From contig NC_091475.1 of NCBI RefSeq assembly GCF_036971445.1, forward strand, positions 204,848,001-204,912,000: a stretch of DNA of 64,000 bases, in the 5' to 3' direction. Shown piece after piece: positions 2,701 through 63,800 of this stretch. Each line of letters begins with the position of its first letter. The stretch's first letter is position 1. This DNA is from Narcine bancroftii. Taxonomy: Eukaryota. The notes below the pieces were generated by a model, which was given only the letters and a program-made list of their open reading frames with translations, ran no database searches and was not told the DNA's origin. The translations under genes were made by a program, and so were the position numbers.

Positions 2701-3213
2701 TGTTGCTCAAAGAGGGGGTGCTTGGTTTATTCCACATGGACTTCCCACAATCAGAGACCACCTAGACACTGGATATCAGCCTTAACTAATGATGGCCCCC
2801 AAACACCAATTGTTGTGCACAGGCAATGTTGAAAGCAATTCAGAGCAAATAAAACAGAAGGAATTTAATCATTCTTTCAAAGTCCTTTCACAGATTTCAT
2901 CTGTGCTGTATCATTCTACAACTCCATCACCTTTCCTCTTCCACAATCGATGTGGACAGTCCTATTCTGCAGAGCACATCCATAAATCTCTGTAATTGCC
3001 CTCTGCTGTTCAATCTTCCAATCCTCTCATGTAATTTCCAATGCTTATGGGTTGGAGGCACTTGAATACATCCTTTTCTTGATCCAGTGTCCTCCAGCCT
3101 CTTCGTGGACTTTTGCTTCTACTCCCTTTTTTTTCATTCTGTTATTTCCTCCTTCAAATTCATGATGATCCTCCATAATCCTTCATTTCAATTCCCTTCC
3201 CTTTCTGCTCCTT

Positions 3214-3438
3214 TGTGATGGAACACAGTAATACATGCTTTGTACTGGTTTGCCTTCCCCTGATACTGTACCTCCTCCCCCTCCAGAATTCCTAATAAAG
3301 GCAGAACCACCCAATCTCTTCCCTCTATACTACCTTGGATATGGGCCAACAGCATTTAAGAGAAGGCTGTAAGTTTATAGTGATTAAAGCCTATTAATCT
3401 TGACGTCTGGTCTGTTGGGTATAATTGATAGCACTGCA
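3214..3438 (+). repeat. 5' LTR of element 1
   Basis: TG...CA, 225 bp, homologous to 7197-7422 and to split solo LTR 45003-45641. Confidence 0.9.
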
Positions 3439-6400
3439 ATTTAATCACCATAACTGCATGGCATGGACGAGGCTATTCAAGTGGAGAAGCTGGACACTGA
3501 CCCTAAGGATCCAGGGGTCTCTGTAAAATTCGACCACCTTTATGAAACATGACATTTGGGAAGAAGTCAAGGAGAGAGGCCAGCTGTTTGCACAGGTCGG
3601 CCACCGTGTTTTCCAGATGATCAGGGACTGTGACACTGGCCCAGCCTCTGTAGGGCTCTGAAGAACATAATCTACAGCTGATACTCAGCCGTTGGTAAGC
3701 ACCTGGTGAATCTGTTGACAATTACATTTGGGCCTTGTGGGAGCTGAGTTAAGCTTGTGGCTGCACAGACATTACGACACCTGTCTACCAAGAGGATTTG
3801 ATCAGGGACGCCTGTGCAGCTGGTCTCAGGTCTGACCATATTTGACAAAGGCTCTTGGAGAATGACGATCGAACCCTGCAGGACATGGTCAATCTCGCCA
3901 AGGCACTACAGATGGACCAACTGAATGTGAACACTTACTCCTCCAGAAAAGTGGCTGCCAAATGGGGAGCATGGGTGTCGCCATCTTAGGATATGGGGTC
4001 CCAAACAGCAGCCATTATTGCTGAGCGTCGGAGGTGAGATTACTAAGGCCAGACAAAGCACCCTTGGAGGAACTGTCCTGCTAGAAGTTCGACTTGCTCC
4101 AACTGCAGAAGAAAAGGACACTATGCAAGGATATGTAGATCCAGACCTTCCCCTTGCAGCACTGCATGCAAGCAGCAGCCATCGCCATCTTGGACCGCAT
4201 CATTTCCAGTTCCACTTCTGGTAATGGAGAACATCATGGTGGGGACCTTGGCGTGACAGCTGGGGTTAACGTCACTTCCAGCTTTACTTCCGGCAGCAAC
4301 CGCTTGTGAACCATGGGGGCAGGCATCTTCAGGGTGATCATCTTGGATGTCGCTGACGCATATGTACAGTAGCTGAGAGTCAGGCAACGAACTGACGCTG
4401 ACATCCAATGTCTGGACCAGAGCAGCCCACATTAATTAGCAAGGTTCATTGAGGTAAACGGGTGCATTACTAACTGCTTGTTCAACACGGGAGGCATCAA
4501 CACTTTACACACCTGGGTACTGTACAGCACTGCTCCCTCACAGTGACCACAGTCCAGTGTAAAATCTCATTGGCCTTTAATCCCATTCAACTGAAATAAC
4601 TGAAGTAACGAAAACTGTGGGTGGTACCAAGAATTTTAAATTGTTCGTTATGTCACAACTCTGTGCACCAGGCATGCGGGGGCTGGACTTGCAGTGCCAA
4701 TTTAAAAGTGTTCTAATGGAATATGGCAGGTCCCACCCTCCCTCACGGTCCGTAATAATCGACTTTTAAACCACCTGCCCATCTCCGTAAAATCAGCCCA
4801 TCAGAAACCTGAACACACCCCACCTGCTCACGACCTGCGGTCTGTCCATCTTCCAAGTCCCACCGCCCCCCATTCGAAAATGCCACTCCTGACGGTAAGC
4901 CTAGGGCAACTAAGAGCAGGCGATACAATCCTGGGTACAGAGACTTTATCAAGGTTGACTCCTGGCAGAGGGCATCATAGGACCCAACACAGCCCTTGAA
5001 GAGCACAGACAGTGGTTGTAAAGAGGGGGGAGAAGCACAGGATGGTCATAGACTACGCCAGACCATCAACAAGTTCACCCTCTTGGATGCCTATCCCCTC
5101 CCCCACATAGCCAGCATGGTGAATGAGATTGTCCAATACGGGGTCTTCTCCAGCATTGACCACAAGTTGGCCTATCCCAGCTCCCAATCCGGCCAGACTC
5201 CTTTAGAGTCATGAACGGAGTTTCGGTCTTCCAGAGTGAGATGGACCGAATAATGGATGGCCACCAACTGAAAGCCACATTCCCCTACCTGGACAACGTG
5301 ACTATCTGTGGCCATGAACTGTAGGATCAAGATGCTCTCCTGCGAAAATTCCTCCAGATGGCAAAAGTCCTAAATCTCACATATAACCAGAAGAGTAGAG
5401 CCTCTGGCTCTACTAGAGTGCATGGTTGAGAATGGAGTCATTGGATCCGACCCTGAGCATATGCAGCCCCTGCTCAAGCTCCCACTCCCCCATAACTTCA
5501 AGGCCCTGAAAAGGTTCCTGGGGTTCTTTTCATACTATGCTCAATGCATCCCCAATTATGTGGACAAAACCCACCCCCTGGTAAAAACTACTACCTTTCC
5601 CCTGTCGGCAGAAGCCCTGGTGGCCTTCACTCACATCAAAAGTGGCATTGCCAAGGCAGCGATGCACACCACAGACAAATCCATCTCATTCCAGGAGAGC
5701 AATGCATCCGACTTTGCCCTGGCTGCTACGCTGAACTAGGTGAGCAGGCCGGTGGCATTTTTTCTCACGTACCTTCCAGGGTCCCGAACTCCGACACTCA
5801 GCCATTGAAAAAGAGGCCCAGGCCATAGTGAAAGCTGTGCACCACTGGAGACATTATCTATCCGGCAAACCGTTCACTCAGCTGACTGACCAACTTGTAG
5901 TCGCAATTATGTTTAACAACAAACAGCAAGGAAAAATTAACAACCACAAGATCCTGAGGTGGAGAATTGAACTGTCCACCTACAACTACCAGCCCAGGAA
6001 GATTAACGAGCCTCCCGATGCCCTAACAAGGTACCTGCACCAACGCACAAGCAGATCACCTCCAAGCCCTTCACCGCAGCCTCTGTCACTCCAGGGTCAC
6101 CAAATTCTATTGCTTTGTGAGAGCCCACAACTATACGTACCAGGTGGAGGACACCAGGGAGCTGACCTGCAGCTACCTCGACTGCATGGAGTGCAAGCCG
6201 CATTTCTAGCGGCTGGAGAAAGCTCACCCGCCTCTTTGAATGTCTAAGTATGGAATTCAAGGGCCCTCTCCCCACCACGAACTAGAACATATCCCATTCG
6301 CCATCCACTGGCCAGATAGGACTACGACCACTGTTATTAAGTCCCTACATAAACTCTTCATGCTCTTCAGATACCCGAGTTACATCCACAGTGACCGGGT

Positions 6401-7196
6401 GCCCTCATTCATGAGTGAGGAGTTGCACCAATACCGGATGGCCAAAGGCATAGCTTTGAACAGGACCACCAGCTATAACCCCCAAGGCAATGGCCAGGTA
6501 GAAAGTGAGAATAGCACCATTTAGAGAGCAGTCCTCCTGGCACTCAGGTCAAAAGGGCTGCTTTTCTTTCACTGGCAAGAGATCCTACCTGAGCCGCTCC
6601 ATGCCATTGGGCCCCTTCTCTGTTCAGCAATGAATGTGACCCTGCATGAAAAATTATTCTCCTGCCCCAGAGTCAGCATCGGGGACAATATTACCTGCCT
6701 GGCAGACAACCCCATGACCTATGCTACTCCAGAGACACACCAGAATTCACAAAGCAGACCCTCTGGTCAGGAAAGTCCACCTCCTCATTGCGAATCCTCA
6801 GGATGCATATGTGAAGTACCAGGATGAGTGGAGAGGCACTGTCTCTGCCTGGGACCCGGAATATACAGGAGACCTGCAAATGAGGCACTTGTTGAACTAA
6901 CTACGGTCAACCAGCAACCCCCACTTCCCCACGATTACCAGAGACACAGTCAAGGATCCAACCCCACCATTGGCACCAGCTGTATCGTTCCAACCCCAAC
7001 CCACATCTTCTCCTTCCCCCCTGATCTAGCCCCAACTGATTCTCTTCAGCCATCTGAATCACAGCCCATCACACAGCCAGCACTGCAATGGTCAGTACGG
7101 TGGACAAAATTACCGGACGGACCAAACCTGTAAATAGTCTCTGAATGGACTTTGACGCTTCATCCTGCTGGACGTTGTTTCAAAATAAGGGGTGAA

Positions 7197-7422
7197 TATG
7201 GTGGAACACTGTATTACAGTCATTGTACTGGTGGGCCTATCCCCGATATTGTAACTCCTCCCCCTCCAGAATTCCAAATAAAGGCAATGTCACCCAATTC
7301 CCCTCCCTCAGTACTGCCTTGGAATCAAGCCAACAGCATGAAAGCTATGCCTGTAAGTTTATAGCAATTAAAGCCTATTAATCTCGACTTCTGGTCTGTC
7401 GGCTCTAATTGATAGTGCCACA
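7197..7422 (+). repeat. 3' LTR of element 1
   Basis: Directly follows PPT, ends GATAGTGCCACA, direct repeat of 3214-3438. Confidence 0.9.
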
Positions 7423-21706: not shown

Positions 21707-24700
21707 TGAAATGCCAGTTGATGAAGTAGACAAAGACGATGTGGTCAAACAATAATCATGGCTTTTATTCACAGAAACTCATGGTACAATAATGAAAGAC
21801 AATAGATGCACATACAGTTATATCCAAGGGGAGTGTCCTTAACAGAAGAGATAACGCACAGCCAATGTTAGTACAGCAAGGCTCGCCAGAGGGGAGACAG
21901 GCAGCTTGGCAGAGATTCACCACAGTCTCCCCCCAGCAGAAGAAGGGTTAAAATCAAAAGGACAGCTGCTAGGAAAGACTGAAGCAAGCGATACATGGAT
22001 ATTATGTTTGGCTTTGAGATACTCCAACAGCCAAAATACGCCAGTATCTAGCAAGTAATCAAAATATAATGTGATGTTTTATGAATATGTCGGCCTATCA
22101 GGCTGTTTATGAATTCTGGTGCTTCGTCTCAAAACAGGTCGCTCCTTTGCAACCTTGGGAACTGGTACAGGTCCTAGGTCTGTAGTGTGGGAAGGACTGG
22201 CTTCTGGACCCGCTCCAGAATTGCCAGCGTGAGGCAGTGGAGCCTCAGCATGGCCATCTGAAAGCTGACTAGGTCACAAGTTGGGGGGGTGAGTCCAACC
22301 TCTCAGGATTACTCTGAGTAGGGGTGTGGGGAAGGGGAGAACCAGGCGAGGCCAGATCTCTTAGGGGTACAGTGTCAGTACTCCCGTCTGGGAATTTAAC
22401 ATGAGCGTAGTTGGGGTTAGTATGCAGTAGCTGAACTGGTTGGACTAGGGGGTCTGTTTTACGTGCCCGAGCGTGGCTCTTCAGTAGCACGGTTCCAGGC
22501 TCAGATAAACAGGCTGGCCAGTCCATTACAGTTCCTGATTTCCTAGGAAAGGCAAACATACATTCATGAGGTGTTTGATTTGTTGCAGTACACAATAAAG
22601 ACCGAATGGAATGTAGTGCCTCAGGCAGCACCTCCTGCCACCGGGTAACAGGGTAACCATGTGTTTTTAAAGCAAGATTAACAGTCTTCCAGACTATAGC
22701 ATTAGCCCTTTCAACCTGCCATTGCCCTGTGGGTTGTAGCTCGTGGTACGGCTGGTGGCAATCCCATTTTGTAGCAGGGCTCGCCGCAGTTCAACGCTCA
22801 TGAATGCTGAGCCTCTACCGGTATGAATGTAATTGGGAAAACAAAAAATGCTGAAAATTCTGTCGTGACTTAGTGACAGACGCTGACGAGACGACAGGGC
22901 AGGGTATCGCAAAGGGAAACCTGGAATATTCGTCAATTACAGTAAGGAAATATACATTTTTGTTGTTGAAAGGTAACGGCCCTTTAAAATCTAAGCTAAT
23001 ACTCTCCAAAGGTCGGGTTGCCTTGATGAGAGTGGCCTCTGGAGCTTTGAAGTATTACGGTTTGCATTCTGCGCAAACAGGACAGCTTTTAGTCAATTTC
23101 CTGACTTCTTCCAGAGAGTAAGGAAGGTTGTTAGCCCTTATGTAGTGGAAGAATCTCATGACTCCTGGGTGGCACAGTCTGCTATGGATCTCTTTTAGCC
23201 CCTCCAGCTGAGCACCAGCAGCAGATCGTGACAATGTGTCAGAGGGATCGTTTAACCTGCCCGGTCTGTACTGGATCTCATAATTATAAGCTGAGAGTTT
23301 TATTCGCCAGCGTGCCATCTTATCGTTCTTGATTTTACTTTTGTGTTTAGTACTGAACATGTAGGCTACAGATTCCTGATCAGTGACAAGAGTAAATTTT
23401 CTGCCAGCTAGAAAGTGTCTCCAGTAGCGAACAGCTTCAATAATAGCCTGGGCTTCTTTTTCAATGGCAGGATGTTTAAGTTCAGGTCCGCGTAACGTGC
23501 GGGAGAAGAATGCCACAGGTCTGTCCTTTTGATTAAGGGTTCCTGCCAAGGCACAATCTGAGGCATCAGTTTCCACTTGGAATGGAACATCCTCGTCAAT
23601 GGACAAGAGTGCAGCTTTGGCAATATCAGCTTTAATTCTCTCGAAAGCCTTCAAGGCCATTGGAGAGAGAGGAAAAGATTTAGTGTGAAACAGAGGGCGT
23701 GGCTTCGTGGCGTAGTCCCGAACCCATTTGCAGTAGTAGGAAAAGAATCTCATACAGCTTTTAAGGGCTTTTGCTGAGTTTGGGGGTGGTAACTTCTTAA
23801 GGGGGGCCATTCTTTCCGGGTCGGGGCGGATTTCGCCCTTGCGGACAATGTAGCCCAGAATGGGTAGCTCTGTCGCATTGAACACACACTTGCCCTCGTT
23901 AACTGTAAGGTTGACTTCTTTAGCTGTTGCTAAAAATTTCTTTAAGTTGTTGTCGTGATCAGCCTGTGTTTTCCCACAGATAGTGACATTATCTAGATAG
24001 GGGTATGTACCCTGTAACTCATACGTCCTAACAATCTTAACCATTTCCCTCTGAAACACGGACACACCATTAGTGACCCCAAAAGGTACCCTTTTAAACT
24101 AGCATAACCCTCCCTCAGCCTCAAAAGCCGAATAGGGCCATTGCCTTTTCTTAATGGGGATTTGGTGATAAGCTGCTTTGAGGTCGATAGTGGAGAACAC
24201 TTTGTATTGCGTTATCTGATTAATCATTTCATTGATGCTTGGCAGGGGGTAGGCATCCAGGTTAGTGTAACGATTGATTGTCTGGCTGTAATCAATAGCC
24301 AGTCGTCTCTTAGTGTGATTTTTCACGACTACCACTTAGGCCCGCCACGGACTCTTACTAGGTTCAATTACTCCCTCTTTAAGCAATCTCTGGGTCTCAG
24401 CTTTGATAAACTCACGATCCTCTTTGCTGTAAGAACGGTTCTTAGTGGCAATCAGTTGACACTCAGGGGATAAATCACTGCATCTTTAATGTGAACAGAC
24501 CACAGTAACTTGCACGGGGAATGGTAAATGTGGGTAGCGGCCCACCAAAATTTAACACTACACTTTCATCTGAGATTGAATATCTAACCCCAGTAACACA
24601 GGGGCGCAGAGCTCTGGCATAATAAAGAGCCACACATCAGTCAGGCAATGTCCCTGCAAATTTAAAGTAACTTTACAGTTGTCCCGTACAGTTTTTGTAA

Positions 24701-25979
24701 GTTCACTACAAGCCATTGATATCTTTCGGTTCGCTGGATATCTCCGCAAATTTAAGGTTCTGGCAACTCTCTCGTGGATGTAGCTGTCAGTACTCCCCAA
24801 GTCTATTAGACAATCAAGAGTCTCACCATTCACCTTCCCCCTTCATAGTCGACCATTCCAGTCTGTAACATCCCCCAAGCTTTGGAGTCAATTGAGCTAT
24901 CACAGGGGATCTCACCTCGCCGTCACTTGATGTCGATTCAGCCTGCTCGTCTGAAGATTCCCCCTTTTCACAGTTGTCTTCCATTCCTGCATCTCCAGGA
25001 AGCATTTTTTTTGGTGGTTCTCTTCTTCTTCTTATCAGTGGGAGTATTTTTCGCCTTACGCGCTTTAGCGAAGTGGCCGAGTTTCCCACAATAGCTGCAG
25101 ATAGCAATCGAGCCGGGCACTTCTGTCTTGGGTGCCAGCTCTTATCACAGAAGTAGCATTTTCAAGAGTTCGCCCTTTTCTTTCCTTCGGGATTCCAGGA
25201 CTCCTGGATGTTTCCTTTTCGGTTTCTAGCATTTCACTGGACCGCATGGCACTTCTCAGTGTTTTGGCTAGAGTGACTGCCCGGTCGTAGGTTAATGGCT
25301 CTGTCTCCAGCATCCGCTGTCGGATGTAACTGGAGTCAATCCCGTTGACTGAAGCATCCAGCTTCAAAGCATTGCGGTGTTGTTGCACCTTGACTGCCCT
25401 GACATCACATTCATTTGCCAGTGAGTCGAGAGCCAGTGCATAGGCAGCATCACTTTCCCCGGGGTTTCTGGCCTCTAGTCAGCAACTGGTGTCGAGCAAG
25501 CACCACATTCTGTGGCGGTGCGTAGTAAGCGGTCAGACGTTCCCGGGCTACAGCCAGAGGGGTAGCTCCTTGCGTTACGGCGAAAGGGTCCTCACCCAGC
25601 AGGTGGCCCAACTGTATCACCTCATCGACCATGTTGTTTCGAGCCATGTAGTAATCGAAACAAGCAATCCAGTGGTTGAAAACTTCTCTGGCCCTTGGGG
25701 CAGACTGGTCGATTATCAGCCGCTCTGGCCTAAGGGCTGCATCCATTTCTGCTAATAAAATTGAAGGGCCAGTTGATGACGTAGACAAAGACGATGTGGT
25801 CAAACAATAATCATGGCTTTTATTAGCATAAACTCATGGTACAATAATAAAAGACAATAAATGCATATACAGTTATATCCAAGGGGAGTGTCCTCAACAG
25901 TAGAGATAATGCACAACTAATATTAGTACTGCAAGGCTCGCCAGAGGGGAGACAGGCAGCTTGGCAGACATTCATCACA
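21707..25979 (-). mobile_element. Full-length Ty3/Gypsy LTR retrotransposon (element 2), best-preserved copy
   Basis: LTRs 25762-25979 and 21707-21924 (218 bp, about 18 mismatches by eye); PPT GGGGGGAGAC; gag ATG 25746 (MDAALRPERL); protease CLIDLGSTDSYI; RT; RNase H; integrase SLDFKGPLP, TVIDEYSRFPFA. Confidence 0.95.
23055..24065 (-). pseudogene. pol: pol fragment of element 2 (RT C-terminus, RNase H, integrase zinc finger)
   Basis: 336 aa ORF: YPYLDNVTICG, VETDASDCALAG, AIEKEAQAI, LVTDQ, HSRLCHPG...CPVCAECKP. Confidence 0.9.
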
Positions 25980-26049: not shown

Positions 26050-27150
26050 TTAAAATATTTTTAATGAGCTTAACGTAACCATCCATATACAAAATATTAA
26101 AAGCAAGGCAAAATAAGAATGTATACATTCCATCCCTTAATATTAATTGTGATAATCTGTTAAAGCAGTTGTACATATATAAATCAATTAATTACTATTA
26201 CAACAAATTATAATATATCTTAATAAGATCTAAGAAATGGGATAATCCACTTATCCAAAAGAAGAAAAAGAGAAAATAAACCCCTGAAACTAAAACTAGT
26301 CTACCTCCTCCCTCTAATTAAGGTTACAAGATGAATCTGGTCACAACCTCTAGACGACGGATGGATCAGCCCTAGAGCACCAAAATCCTCGAAAACTGGC
26401 AATTGTAATAAAATTCAATAAATGGACCATGTACCTTGTCAAACTGAAACCTTTTATCTTTAATACGATACCTTTTCTCTAAACCTAAATATGATATTAC
26501 ATCATGTAGCCCAATGGTACTCAACCTTTTTCCTTTCCACTCACATACAGCTTTAAGTATTCCCTACGCCAGCAGTGCACTGTGATTAATAAAGGATTGC
26601 TTAAGGTGGTATATGGGTGGAAAGAAAAACTTTGTAATCCACAATTTTAATCATCCCTAATTGACTCGTTATGTGCACGGTTTCAGAACTCCAAAGGAAA
26701 TGGGCCAATAACAATTGTTTTCAAGAAAAATATTTCAGTAACAATTGGATCGAGAGCAGTGATTCTCATCCTTCTCTTCCCACTCACATCTCACCTTATG
26801 CAATCCCTTATTAATCACAGAGCACTGATGGCACAGGGATTACTTAAAGTGAGAGGTGAGGGGAAGATAAAGGTTGGGTATCATTGGGGTAGCCACTGTG
26901 CGTGAGTCATCTTTCCATTTCATTAAAACTGCTCATCTAGCTATCAACGTGCTGAAAGCTAAATCTTTCTCTTGAGATGCCAATAAAGGTTTATCTGGTT
27001 TACATGAAAAACTAAACAGTGCAATGAAAGGGCAAGTAAATAATTTAATCTTCAAAATCTTTGACAAAAAATTAAAAATATTCTGGCAATAATTTCATAG
27101 ATTAGGACATTCCCAACACATATGAAACAGTAAGGCTATCTAACCTCTCC
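26050..27150 (-). mobile_element. L1-like LINE 3' fragment
   Basis: Minus strand encodes LFHMCWECPNL..YCQNIF..L and A.LARxAVLMKWK; similar to 48650-49700. Confidence 0.65.
26512..26886. mobile_element. hAT-type composite MITE
   Basis: Ends CAATGGTACTCAACCTTT / AAAGGTTGGGTATCATTG; 8-bp TSD ATGTAGCC/GGGTAGCC (6/8). Confidence 0.75.
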
Positions 27151-45002: not shown

Positions 45003-45641
45003 TGTGGTGGAACACTGCCTTACAGTCAATGTACTGGTTGTTCCACCCTGATACTGTAACTCCTCCCCCTCCAGAATTCCTAATAAAGGTGGTATCGTTC
45101 AGTCCCCTCCCTCATACAGATACACGATCCTTTATCCGGAACCCTTGGGGGACAGTGTGTTCCAAATTTTGGATTTTTCCAGATTTTGGAAAGCCAGATT
45201 TAAGCCCACCCAAATTATGCTGCCGGTCTCCCCCCACCCACCCTCGCCCGGCTGACTTGCGTTGCCGTTCTCCCCCGCCTTGCCTGCCTGACTCACACTG
45301 CCGTTCTCCACCCCCCTCGCTCACCCGAGTCACACTGCCGATCTCCCCCCCCCCCCCCCGACTCGCGCTGCCAGTCTCTCTCCCTCATCCCCGCCGACTC
45401 GTGCTGCAGGTCTCTCCCCCTTGCCCACCACCCCCCCCCCCCGACTTTTGCTGCCGTCTCTCTCTCTCCCCACTTGCTAGATTTTGGAGCTTTCCAGATT
45501 TTAGATGTCCGGATAAAGGATAGTGTGCAATACTGCCTTGGAATTGGGTCAAGAGCATGTAAGATATGCCTGTAAATTTATAGCGATCAAAGCCTATTAA
45601 TCTTGACTTATAGACCGTAAGGCCTAATTGATACCGCTGCA
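45003..45641 (+). repeat. Solo LTR of the element-1 family, split by a MITE
   Basis: 45003-45116 plus 45531-45641 rebuild the LTR; perfect 5-bp TSD CCCTT. Confidence 0.9.
45117..45530. mobile_element. Tc1/mariner-type MITE with internal minisatellite
   Basis: TIR ACACGATCCTTTATCCGGA / TCCGGATAAAGGATAGTGT, TA duplication, ~35-bp GACTCGCGCTGCCGGTCTCCCC-like tandem units. Confidence 0.85.
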
Positions 45642-60816: not shown

Positions 60817-63800
60817 TATGGTAAACCACTTTGTACATTTATCTATCTGGACATGCCCATTGGCTGATTTCACCTGTGGCCCCACCTACTGACACCTGAA
60901 TAAATCTGATTGTTCCACAATGCCTTCCCAGTCCAGGACAGTCGACCAGCATGGAAGTGCCTCTATTCTATTGTGAATAAAAGCCTCTCACTTCTACAGA
61001 ACTTTCAGTCTTTTGGAGTTATGGTGCATCAATTTTATTCACAATAAATTTTGACAATGGAGCAGATCCTGAAGGCAGAGACGTTGAAAATCGACCCTCA
61101 ATCAATTGTAACCTACACCGACCTCAAACTCCGGCTGCGTTGCTTTGAAGCGTTCCCACAGACATCACTTGCCATCGTTCGGTCAGACAGCTGCAGGTAC
61201 TACACTCCTGGGTTGGGGCTCTAGTGTACTCAATGATCAGGGATACTTGCGTTGTACCCAGAGGAGACGAACATTCTGAAACAATGTCTACGTGAGCCAC
61301 TCAAAAACAGTGACCTGGGGAGTTGAGCGCTGTGTACCTCCAGGCTCTATGAACTTTCAGATGGGCCTGTGACTGCAAGGTCTTGTCGGCCGCAGAGAAC
61401 ACTGAAAACCTGATTAGAGACATGTACATCGCAGGCATCAAGTCCAATTACATCCGCCAGACTGCTGGAGCAATGTGAGAACAATTTGCAAAGGGCAGTC
61501 AAACTGGCAGGCCAGAATATGGAAGCCTACTTGGCCGACAACTTGAACTCATTGTGGTTTCCCCAGGCACTGCCAACTTTCGACGCGCCGCGAGCACCTA
61601 ACTCTGCTAACATCATGTTCTGCCAATGGCCCAACCACAGCCGCTGTACTCTGTGAGCACCCAAAATTCTACTTCTGTGGCCTGGACAAGCACTCGAGGA
61701 AATGCTGCCTGGCGAAAAACAGAGTCTGCTACCACTGTTGGAAAAAAGGACATTATACGAAAGTGTGTAAATCCAAGTCACCCTAATCTAGCAACGTCAC
61801 TTGCAGACTGTGGGGGATTCCATCTTGGATGCAGCCATCTCCGAGACCCAGCAGCGTCATGAGCAAGCCTTAAGGGTTGCCATCTTGGATGCCACCATCT
61901 TTGAAACCCAGCATCGCTGCGTGCGAGCCATGGGGACTGTCATCTTGAATGCCACCATCTTGCGATTGAACACACAATCTCTCCGCCGCAACTACAGATA
62001 GCGACCCGATAATGGCCTCCATCATGTTAAATCAAGGTAATCCTCACCAACTCGCCCGATCGATGATGGACATCCAGGTAAACGGCCGCATGACAAGCTG
62101 CCTATTCAATAGTGGGAGCAAAAAGAGCTTTACCATTCCGACAAGGTGCAGTGCTACTCCCTCTCAGTTAGGCCAATGAGTCATAAATTCTCATTGGCCT
62201 CAAAGTCCCATACAGTTGATGTCTGTGGCTACTGCATAATAACTTTGACTGTGAAGGGCACTTTAAACTCCTGGTGCTGTCACAACTATGAGCTGCCATG
62301 TTACTTGGACTGGAATTCCAATGCCACCTTAAAAGTGTGATGATGGAGTATGAGGGACCCCCTTTTCCCCACCCCCTCACTGTCTGTAACCAGCAGTTCT
62401 TAAACCGCCCACTATACTCCACCAACAACTACTCCTCGGACACTTCCCCCACCGTTCCCAGCCAACAACCCGGCCATCGCTCACTGCACACGGCCTGTGG
62501 ACTCACAATTCTAAAGATTACCCCTCCATCACTGTTCACTAACCTCACCCCCAACTGCAAACCCATTGCCACCAAAAGCAGATGGTTCAGTGCCAGGAAC
62601 AGGGATTTATTAGGCCGGACATGGAGCGGCTACTCAACGAGGGGATCATCAAAGCCAATACCAGCCCGTGGAGAGGCCAAGTGATGGTGGTGAGGAATGG
62701 AGAGAAAAACAGAATGAATATTGACTACAGTCAGACCATTAACAGATGTAGACAGCTGGACGCGTACCCTTTTCCCCGCATATCTGATATGGTGAACCAA
62801 AATGCGCAATTTTGGATTTTCTCCTCCATTGACCTTAAGCCAACTTATCACCAGCTTCCCATCTGCATGGAGGACCATCAATACACCGGTTTAAAGGCAA
62901 TTGGCCACCTCTATCATTTCCTGAAGGTTCCCTTCGGCGTCACCAAAGGGGTTTTGGTCTTCCAGCGGTATATGGACCAAATGGTCGACCGATATGAACT
63001 GCAGACCACATTCCCATATCTGGACAGTGTCACCATTTGTGCCACGACCTGCAGGATCATGACGCCAACCTCAAAAAATTCCTCTAGATAGCCAACCTCA
63101 CATATAACAAAGCTAAATGCATATTTCACACAACCCGCCTTGCCATCCTTGGCTGTGTCCTAGAGAACAGAGTCAATGGACCCCAACCCCAATCGCATGC
63201 ACCCGCTTTTGGAACTCCTCCTCCCCCACAGGATCGAACCCTGAAAAGGAACCTGGGCTCCCTTCCCTACAATGTCCAGTGAGTCTCTAATTATGTGAAC
63301 AAGGCCCACTCCCTTGTTAAATCTACCTGGCACCAGAGGCCCGTGCAGCTTTCAGCCACATCAAAGCAGACACTGCCAAGGCTACGATGAACGCTGTGGA
63401 TGAATCCACCCCATTCCAGGTGGAGACCAATGCGTCCAACTTTACCCTGGTGACCACACTTAACTAGGCAGGCAGACTCATCACTTCCTTTTCACACAGC
63501 CTCCAGGCCCTGAAATTCGACACTCCTCTGAGGAGAAGGAGGCCCAAGCTATTGTCGAGTGGTGCAGCACTGGGGACACTACCAAGCTGGCAAACGATCG
63601 ACCATGCTGACTGACCAGTGGGCAGTGGCACTCATGTTCAACAACCAGCAGCATGTAAAATCAAAAATGACAGGATATTGAGGTGGAGAATTGAACTTTC
63701 CACTTACAATCTTGTACTGACCCAGGAAACTCAATGAGCTTCCAGTCACTCTATCCCACTGAATGTGCACCAGTGCACAAATAGACTGATTGCAAACCCT

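What the first reader, a model, noticed from the sequence alone, without database searches (positions are those of the whole stretch)
3375..3453. Element 1: third version of the hairpin, using ATTAAA
Seen: leader TTTAATCACCATAA (3440-3453) pairs 13/14 with TTATAGTGATTAAA (3375-3388). The poly(A) hexamer here is the ATTAAA variant and the leader changes accordingly (TTTAAT rather than TTTATT). A TATA-like TAATAAAGG (~3292) and an Inr-like TCAGT (visible in the 3' LTR) lie upstream, suggesting the arm is ~50 nt inside the transcript rather than at its 5' end as in Tf1 (inference).
Basis: partly seen in the sequence, partly recalled or inferred. Interest (0 to 1): 0.7.

Follow-up and report, generated by a model that had tools for sequence, protein, structure and literature searches.

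The report
Self-priming hairpin in animal retrotransposon lineage
A decayed jumping gene keeps a 14-base match between its poly(A)-signal region and the exact spot where DNA copying must start; relatives keep the same pairing with different letters and have no tRNA site, so this lineage probably primes its own reverse transcription, a trick so far described in other retrotransposon groups.

Summary
The pairing is real: 3440-3453 matches 3375-3388 at 13/14 (5 of 20,000 LTR shuffles). It lies in a decayed Ty3/Gypsy element, and the leader starts 2 nt after the 5' LTR end, the primer-binding position. In 31 families (49 copies) the register is fixed: 357 of 372 cells at positions 1-12 are Watson-Crick, only 2 are G-U, letters covary, and 0 of 49 leaders have a tRNA-type TGG. 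Ten of 11 other-lineage Gypsy elements have TGG and none has the stem. A second helix stacks directly on the arm (26 of 31). The elements form one RT clade without chromodomain, mostly YxDN, apart from the one chromovirus sampled. Best reading: Tf1-like self-priming in a separate lineage, also masking the 5' poly(A) signal. Cleavage and priming are inferred. The TATA/Inr claim is unsupported across families and the start site is unknown. Ten literature searches found self-priming only for Tf1/sushi, Tcn1 and TAR copia. The scan earlier noted a similar hairpin in an unrelated diatom copia lineage.

The parts
3214..3438 (+). 5' LTR of Element 1 (TG...CA, 225 bp)
   Evidence: end confirmed against the 3' LTR
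3293..3301 (+). TAATAAAGG: TATA-like, or branch-point-like (CTAAT 3292-3296); role unresolved
   Evidence: sequence; kept in the three LTR copies of this family; not conserved across families
3375..3388 (+). Arm (inferred self-primer), ending in ATTAAA at 3383-3388
3389..3438 (+). Loop: starts with conserved RCC(T), the 5' strand of helix P2; inferred cleavage point at or next to 3388/3389; contains a GT-rich stretch and the LTR end
   Evidence: in this decayed copy the RCC helix is not the predicted fold (probability 0.01)
3439..3439 (+). Unpaired spacer base after the LTR end
   Evidence: 0 of 31 families have a Watson-Crick pair here
3440..3453 (+). Leader at the primer-binding position, complementary to the arm; no TGG
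3463..7134 (+). Decayed single gag-pol region (many stops and frameshifts): gag start 3463, zinc knuckle about 4059-4136, RT YLDN at 5286, RNase H about 5759-5893, integrase core about 6294-6482
7182..7196 (+). Polypurine tract
7197..7422 (+). 3' LTR; arm copy at 7359-7372 matches the leader 11/14; TCAGT at 7308-7312
21707..25979 (-). Element 2, same clade; LTRs 91.7% identical; arm 25832-25818, leader 25760-25746, 14/15 paired, AATAAA
45003..45641 (+). Solo LTR of the Element 1 family with a 5-bp target duplication (CCCTT) and an insertion; arm copy at 45578-45591
60969..61046 (+). Element 3 hairpin: arm 60969-60982, LTR end 61031, leader 61033-61046, 14/14 paired, AATAAA

Best explanation
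The leader is a self-complementary primer-binding site of a tRNA-independent Ty3/Gypsy lineage. SHOWN (sequence): a 9-19 bp (median 14) nearly pure Watson-Crick helix P1 joins an LTR arm to the bases from +2 after the LTR end; a second helix P2 starts at the very next base (RCC...GGY); there is no tRNA site. INFERRED: the arm lies in the 5' R region of the genomic RNA; the RNA is cut at the P1/P2 junction, probably by the element's RNase H as in Tf1; the arm's 3' end primes minus-strand synthesis over U5; strand transfer uses the short stretch between the cut and the poly(A) site; plus-strand synthesis copies the primer and so rewrites the leader from the arm, which keeps the stem Watson-Crick. 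INFERRED second use: in most families the arm carries the poly(A) hexamer, which is buried at the 5' LTR and free at the 3' LTR. How far upstream of the arm transcription starts is unknown; a start near the arm's 5' end is the simplest case.
For: Register and purity: positions 1-9 Watson-Crick in 275 of 279 cells; positions 1-12 give 357 WC, 2 G-U, 13 mismatches of 372; the two inner positions are WC in 0 and 2 of 31. Swap control at positions 5-12: 235 own pairs against mean 120, maximum 151 in 10,000 permutations. Unanchored test: 37 of 45 segments upstream of gag have a perfect stem longer than all 60 shuffles. TGG in 0 of 49 leaders; 10 of 11 other-lineage Gypsy elements from two host assemblies show TGG at the LTR end (9 by the script, L138 by eye), with best stems of 5-7. 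In 16 disjoint pairs, 65 of 78 changed positions changed on both sides and stay paired. L037 carries a transversion in both LTR arms and the matching one in the leader among only 14 private changes in 2,830 columns, about 0.0015 by chance (my estimate). P2 of 4 bp or more in 26 of 31 against 8 (maximum 13) in shuffles, with 22 G-U of 135 pairs against 2 of 372 in P1. The last 6 arm bases are 0.08 unpaired with the leader and 0.56 without it, in 28 of 28 families. [quoted passage not shown]
Against: No transcript end, cleavage product or cDNA end was observed. The junction was picked by a motif and best pairing and by hand for L033, L044 and L055; LTR pairs confirm it cleanly in 22 copies. L017 shows no stem (the contig may lack the arm) and was dropped with L056. 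Four of six copies of the L004 family keep a mismatch at position 14, and L007 has an arm change in both LTRs with an unchanged leader, so rewriting of the leader is at best partial. The L037 case is a single event. The 65/78 count is inflated by register slips in the A/T run and several of the 16 pairs are not sister taxa. P2 G-U counts come from a longest-helix rule that favours G-U. Families are related, so cells are not independent events.
Confidence: 0.62

Rival explanations
1. The arm lies in U3. Transcription starts at the conserved RCC right after the hexamer, so only the 3' LTR copy of the arm is in the RNA. It pairs with the leader over the whole genome (5'-3' cyclization), stacking the arm on the capped P2 helix, and the primer comes from the 3' end of this or the partner RNA.
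For: RCC(T) directly after the arm is conserved (C at +2 and +3 in 27 of 31). Hexamer-then-GCC at the cap site is the layout of avian sarcoma/leukosis virus LTRs, and Ty1 uses a 14-nt 5'-3' pairing (both recalled, not from a call). All covariation data fit this equally.
Against: No TATA signal 27-33 nt upstream of RCC (0 of 26). The CC is already explained by helix P2. The 3' arm would be needed both as primer and as template (inference). No precedent found in 10 searches.
Confidence: 0.2
2. The stem is regulatory only: it masks the 5' poly(A) signal or controls gag translation or packaging, and some unknown host RNA is the primer.
For: A canonical hexamer is in the arm in 21 of 31 families and is occluded by the leader in 28 of 28; in several families the stem reaches the gag ATG.
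Against: It leaves no primer: 0 of 49 TGG, and leaders differ by family while matching their own LTR. The stem persists where the arm has no hexamer (L063, L034, L055). A masking helix need not keep a one-base register to the LTR end or avoid G-U.
Confidence: 0.13
3. Priming by internal tRNA fragments, as for some copia elements, with the LTR match a by-product.
For: Half-tRNA priming exists in copia lineages (PMC6317226, passages). The first 4-6 leader bases are fairly conserved.
Against: Leader positions 5-12 follow each family's own arm (27 of 31 own pairs reach 7 of 8, against 22 of 930 swapped). Host tRNA sets were not tested.
Confidence: 0.04
4. Chance pairing of AT-rich sequence.
For: For Element 1 alone the perfect stem is 9 bp (p=0.066) and the fold z-score is +0.75.
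Against: 5 of 20,000 shuffles; 37 of 45 relatives; absent from 11 of 11 control elements.
Confidence: 0.01

Closest known systems
Tf1/Tf2 of Schizosaccharomyces pombe and the Tf1/sushi chromoviruses (with Tj1 and Tcn1)
   Same: Ty3/Gypsy; no tRNA site; sequence just after the 5' LTR complementary to a segment of the LTR; further helices next to it (the latter from reference titles). Mechanism shown for Tf1: first 11 bases pair, RNase H cuts between 11 and 12 (PMC7175516; PMC5341516).
   Different: No chromodomain, SH3_Tf2-1 or Ty3_capsid hit in 39 of 39 intact relatives; RT-RH clade separated with support 100 from the one chromodomain-bearing protein sampled; two-knuckle gag in 59 of 72 long proteins and YxDN in 98 of 120; stem median 14 bp; arm usually carries the poly(A) hexamer. 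Whether sushi primers overlap the hexamer was not tested.
TAR clade Ty1/copia of plants (Houba, Osr-1)
   Same: Predicted self-priming from LTR-leader complementarity (PMC6317226, passages).
   Different: Different superfamily; this lineage has the RT-RH-IN order.
Mag lineage of Gypsy (A, B, C clades, Cigr-1, MolGy clades)
   Same: Short LTRs, about 4.2 kb, single ORF, paired zinc knuckles (recalled traits). LTR end motifs resemble those listed for Mag C (PMC3601003). Cigr-1 is listed as Mag in PMC6238403 supplement 1.
   Different: No reference sequence of a named clade was available, so the clade name is untested; no self-priming is reported for these clades in the passages seen.
HIV-1 poly(A) hairpin and U5-leader pairings of retroviruses (recalled)
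   Same: Base-pairing that hides the 5' copy of the poly(A) hexamer.
   Different: Retroviruses keep a tRNA site; here the masking strand is the primer-binding position itself.

Membership tests
Ty3/Gypsy LTR retrotransposon | Two LTRs, PPT, gag-PR-RT-RH-IN order | tested here: met
Tf1-type self-priming mechanism | No tRNA primer-binding site | tested here: met
   0 of 49 TGG; internal tRNA fragments not tested
Tf1-type self-priming mechanism | Sequence next to the 5' LTR complementary to an LTR segment, covarying | tested here: met
Tf1-type self-priming mechanism | The complementary segment is the first bases of the mRNA | tested here: inconclusive
   no promoter signal under three models; only contigs available
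Tf1-type self-priming mechanism | RNase H cleavage releases the primer | not testable with these tools
   needs biochemistry
Tf1/sushi chromoviruses | Chromodomain at the integrase C-terminus | tested here: not met
   0 of 39 intact relatives; found in outgroup P0266
Tf1/sushi chromoviruses | RT-RH groups with chromoviruses | tested here: not met
   87-row clade, support 100, excludes P0266; only one labelled chromovirus, FastTree, midpoint root
Mag lineage / Cigr-1 clade | RT phylogeny with named references | not tested
   no reference sequences obtainable; readable supplements of PMC6238403 gave names only
Mag lineage / Cigr-1 clade | Two zinc knuckles in gag (recalled trait) | tested here: met
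   59 of 72 proteins over 1,100 aa

The most novel reading that the evidence does not exclude
A separate origin of tRNA-free priming in a widespread animal Gypsy clade, with an architecture unlike Tf1: the primer is the poly(A)-signal segment itself and is not the capped 5' end, but is cut from inside the transcript or supplied by the 3' LTR copy through genome cyclization, at a conserved two-helix junction, by an RT with a natural YxDN active site.
Probability: 0.35. Interest if true: 0.82.

Novelty: new variant of a known kind. Interest (0 to 1): 0.62.

Why it matters
Self-priming is treated as a mark of Tf1/sushi chromoviruses, with TAR copia as a predicted second case (PMC6317226). A non-chromovirus Gypsy clade with named protein relatives in sharks and rays, a sea anemone, a nematode and a tunicate would be another origin, or a sign that hairpin priming is old, a question raised in PMC3601003. 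Such elements would escape control by tRNA fragments and are missed by PBS-based annotation. One helix that both hides the 5' poly(A) signal and supplies the primer would be a compact answer to two problems every LTR element faces. The two-helix junction gives a precise, testable cleavage site.

Tried and rejected
No whole genome is held for the window. Viral-contig scans found no relative; the DNA pattern gave one match in an unrelated coding region, set aside as chance. RNA: no RNA holder listed; three runs kept as contigs showed related copies across the LTR-leader junction but cannot show starts or ends. Rfam: 0 matches at E<=1 over 3150-3600. Splice-acceptor idea: 4 of 26 against 3.6 in shuffles, rejected as a general feature under a strict rule. 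Inr at the stem's outer end: no common context. TATA under three start models: none. Naming the clade: searches for YLDN, YXDN and Cigr-1 gave nothing usable; atlas and cluster look-ups gave no clade name; PDB's best hit is Ty3 at E=7e-58, not informative on clade. Levin 1996 is not held. One supplement of PMC6238403 is a scanned PDF and one a slide file, neither readable; they may bear on the clade name. Earlier-finding look-ups by sequence, place and a second word set returned nothing.

Full report
Observation. The leader TTTAATCACCATAA (3440-3453) is complementary to 3375-3388 at 13 of 14 positions. Comparing the two LTRs places the 5' LTR at 3214-3438 and the 3' LTR at 7197-7422, 80.6% identical, with a polypurine tract at 7182-7196. 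The leader therefore starts at +2 after the terminal CA, where a primer-binding site belongs. A match this good arose in 5 of 20,000 dinucleotide shuffles of the LTR. For this copy alone other tests are weak: the longest perfect stem is 9 bp (p=0.066), the 151-nt region has a folding z-score of +0.75, and the 3' and solo LTR arms match at 11/14. The three LTR copies read TG, CA and CG at two arm positions, as CpG decay would give.

The element. The internal region is a decayed gag-pol with RNase H and integrase hits in Gypsy order. Elements 2 and 3 of the window have the same hairpin with other letters. The intact RT-RH frame of Element 2 finds relatives named from Scyliorhinus, Hypanus, Narcine, Mobula, Actinostola, Trichuris and Styela; the hairpin was not examined in those genomes. 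Of these 120 proteins, 98 have YxDN in place of YxDD, as do Elements 1 and 2, and 59 of 72 long ones have two zinc knuckles. None of 39 scanned has a chromodomain, SH3_Tf2-1 or Ty3_capsid hit. In an RT-RH tree of 139 rows, the three window elements and all hairpin loci included fall in one 87-row clade with support 100. The other 52 rows include one chromodomain-bearing protein among 21 scanned. The clade could not be named; Mag lineage or Cigr-1 is a recalled lead only.

Relatives. Scans gave 80 metagenome loci and 8 genome-collection loci; their hosts are unnamed and presumably eukaryotic. Without any anchoring, 37 of 45 segments upstream of gag (42 loci plus the three window elements; two more were too short) held a perfect stem longer than all 60 shuffles. 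The misses were L017, L044, L051, L056, L071, L077, L078 and Element 1. For the anchored count I took 51 copies, dropped L017 (no stem found) and L056 (arm at the other contig end, 12 bases matching by eye), set three junctions by hand, and grouped 49 copies into 31 families at 80% nucleotide identity. LTR pairs confirm the junction cleanly in 22 copies. Positions 1-9 are Watson-Crick in 275 of 279 cells; positions 1-12 give 357 WC, 2 G-U and 13 mismatches; pairing falls to background by position 17; the two inner positions are WC in 0 and 2 of 31. Stem length is 9-19, median 14. Swapping leaders between families halves the pairing at positions 5-12 (235 against mean 120, maximum 151 of 10,000). 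In 16 disjoint pairs, 65 of 78 changed positions changed on both sides and stay paired; register slips inflate this figure and some pairs are not sisters.

Control. No leader of the clade has TGG (0 of 49). From 20 regions fetched out of two assemblies that hold eukaryotic contigs, 11 other-lineage Gypsy elements had a credible LTR pair: 10 show TGG at the LTR end (9 by the script, L138 by eye), L128 does not, and the best stems score 5-7. The remaining RT matches lacked a usable LTR pair or belong to the clade.

Second helix and poly(A) signal. The arm is followed at once by RCC(T), which opens a helix of 4 bp or more in 26 of 31 families against 8 in shuffles (maximum 13), with 22 G-U among 135 pairs. 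P1 and P2 thus meet with no base between them. In Element 1 itself this P2 is not the predicted fold. The arm ends in AATAAA in 12 and ATTAAA in 9 of 31 families; 10 have other endings, and L063 has no hexamer-like ending yet keeps 15 of 15 pairs. The last six arm bases are predicted 0.08 unpaired with the leader and 0.56 without it, in 28 of 28 families; for Element 1, 0.17-0.30 at the 5' end and 0.81 at the 3' LTR. Masking is therefore plausible, but the stem does not depend on the hexamer.

Within-family changes. L037 differs from its five siblings at 14 private sites in 2,830 columns; these include a transversion in the arm, present in both LTRs, and the matching one in the leader. I estimate about 0.0015 for this by chance. 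It is what copying of the primer into the primer-binding site would produce, but it is one event. L007 has an arm change in both LTRs with an unchanged leader, which fits a first-generation copy under the same model. Four of six L004-family copies keep a mismatch at position 14, so any rewriting is partial or does not reach that far.

Start site. No TATA signal supports a start at RCC, near the arm's 5' end, or 63 nt upstream. Only contigs were available from RNA runs. A start 50 nt upstream would give a primer of about 60 nt that plus-strand synthesis would have to stop copying early (inference), which makes a start near the arm the simpler case. A start at RCC, with the arm supplied by the 3' LTR, is not excluded.

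Mechanism. Shown: structure, register, covariation, absence of a tRNA site. Inferred: cleavage at the P1/P2 junction, priming by the arm, rewriting of the leader, masking of the hexamer. Confidence 0.62 for the Tf1-like cis model, 0.20 for cyclization, 0.13 for a regulatory role only, 0.04 for tRNA fragments, 0.01 for chance.

Literature. Ten full-text searches found no report of self-priming in this kind of element. I saw passages of PMC3601003, PMC12471100, PMC6934838, PMC6238403 (supplements listed in 35 and searched in 39, two files unreadable), PMC13524379, PMC2864245, PMC6317226, PMC4600332, PMC7175516, PMC5341516 and PMC8220671. They name Tf1/sushi, Tj1, Tcn1 and TAR copia as self-priming. 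The primary papers of Levin, Lin and Butler were seen only as reference titles; subscription journals and Repbase reports are not in the library, so a prior remark cannot be excluded. Statements on avian retrovirus LTRs, Ty1 cyclization, the HIV hairpin and Mag traits are recalled.

Verdict. A real, strongly covarying hairpin; a new variant of a known mechanism in a lineage outside the chromoviruses. Interest 0.62.

Noticed in passing
window 5286 and 23999; proteins P0001-P0120: The RT active-site motif is YxDN instead of YxDD in 98 of 120 relatives, including intact ones; deeper clade members mostly keep YxDD. Two searches found no paper on it.
   Followed up: partly
L016, L033, L044, L046, L056, L064, L087, upstream of the arm; window 3292-3328 and 7290-7312: Several LTRs hold a pyrimidine tract plus YAG that looks like a splice acceptor 0-60 nt before the arm; L044 seems to have donor and acceptor sites in its LTR. 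Not enriched over shuffles under a strict rule.
   Followed up: partly
L134 and L135 (G002:C56, G001:C2): Two decayed, more distant elements (34-38% to the RT-RH query) have an arm ending AAAT with AATAAA directly after it, outside the stem; L134 pairs 9 of 9 by eye. Pairing may predate the overlap with the hexamer. They were not placed in the tree.
   Followed up: partly
L128 (G001:C30): A young Gypsy element (LTRs 99.5% identical) with neither TGG nor a stem at the LTR end; primer unexplained.
   Followed up: no
window about 45114-45529: An insertion of about 415 bp with inverted ends splits the solo LTR; it looks like a non-autonomous DNA transposon.
   Followed up: no
window 26507-26891: Inverted repeat pair of about 120 bp at 79.5% identity, MITE-like.
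   Followed up: no
G001, G002, G003: These bacterial genome records contain many intact eukaryotic-type Gypsy elements (168, 167 and 7 matches), which points to host contigs binned into them.
   Followed up: no
L055 92-176: LTR of only about 85-90 bp with a 12-bp stem and no canonical poly(A) hexamer.
   Followed up: partly
arm positions 7 and 10 from the junction, 31 families: G is kept at arm position 10 in 25 of 31 and at position 7 in 18 of 31 families; possibly a recognition feature.
   Followed up: no
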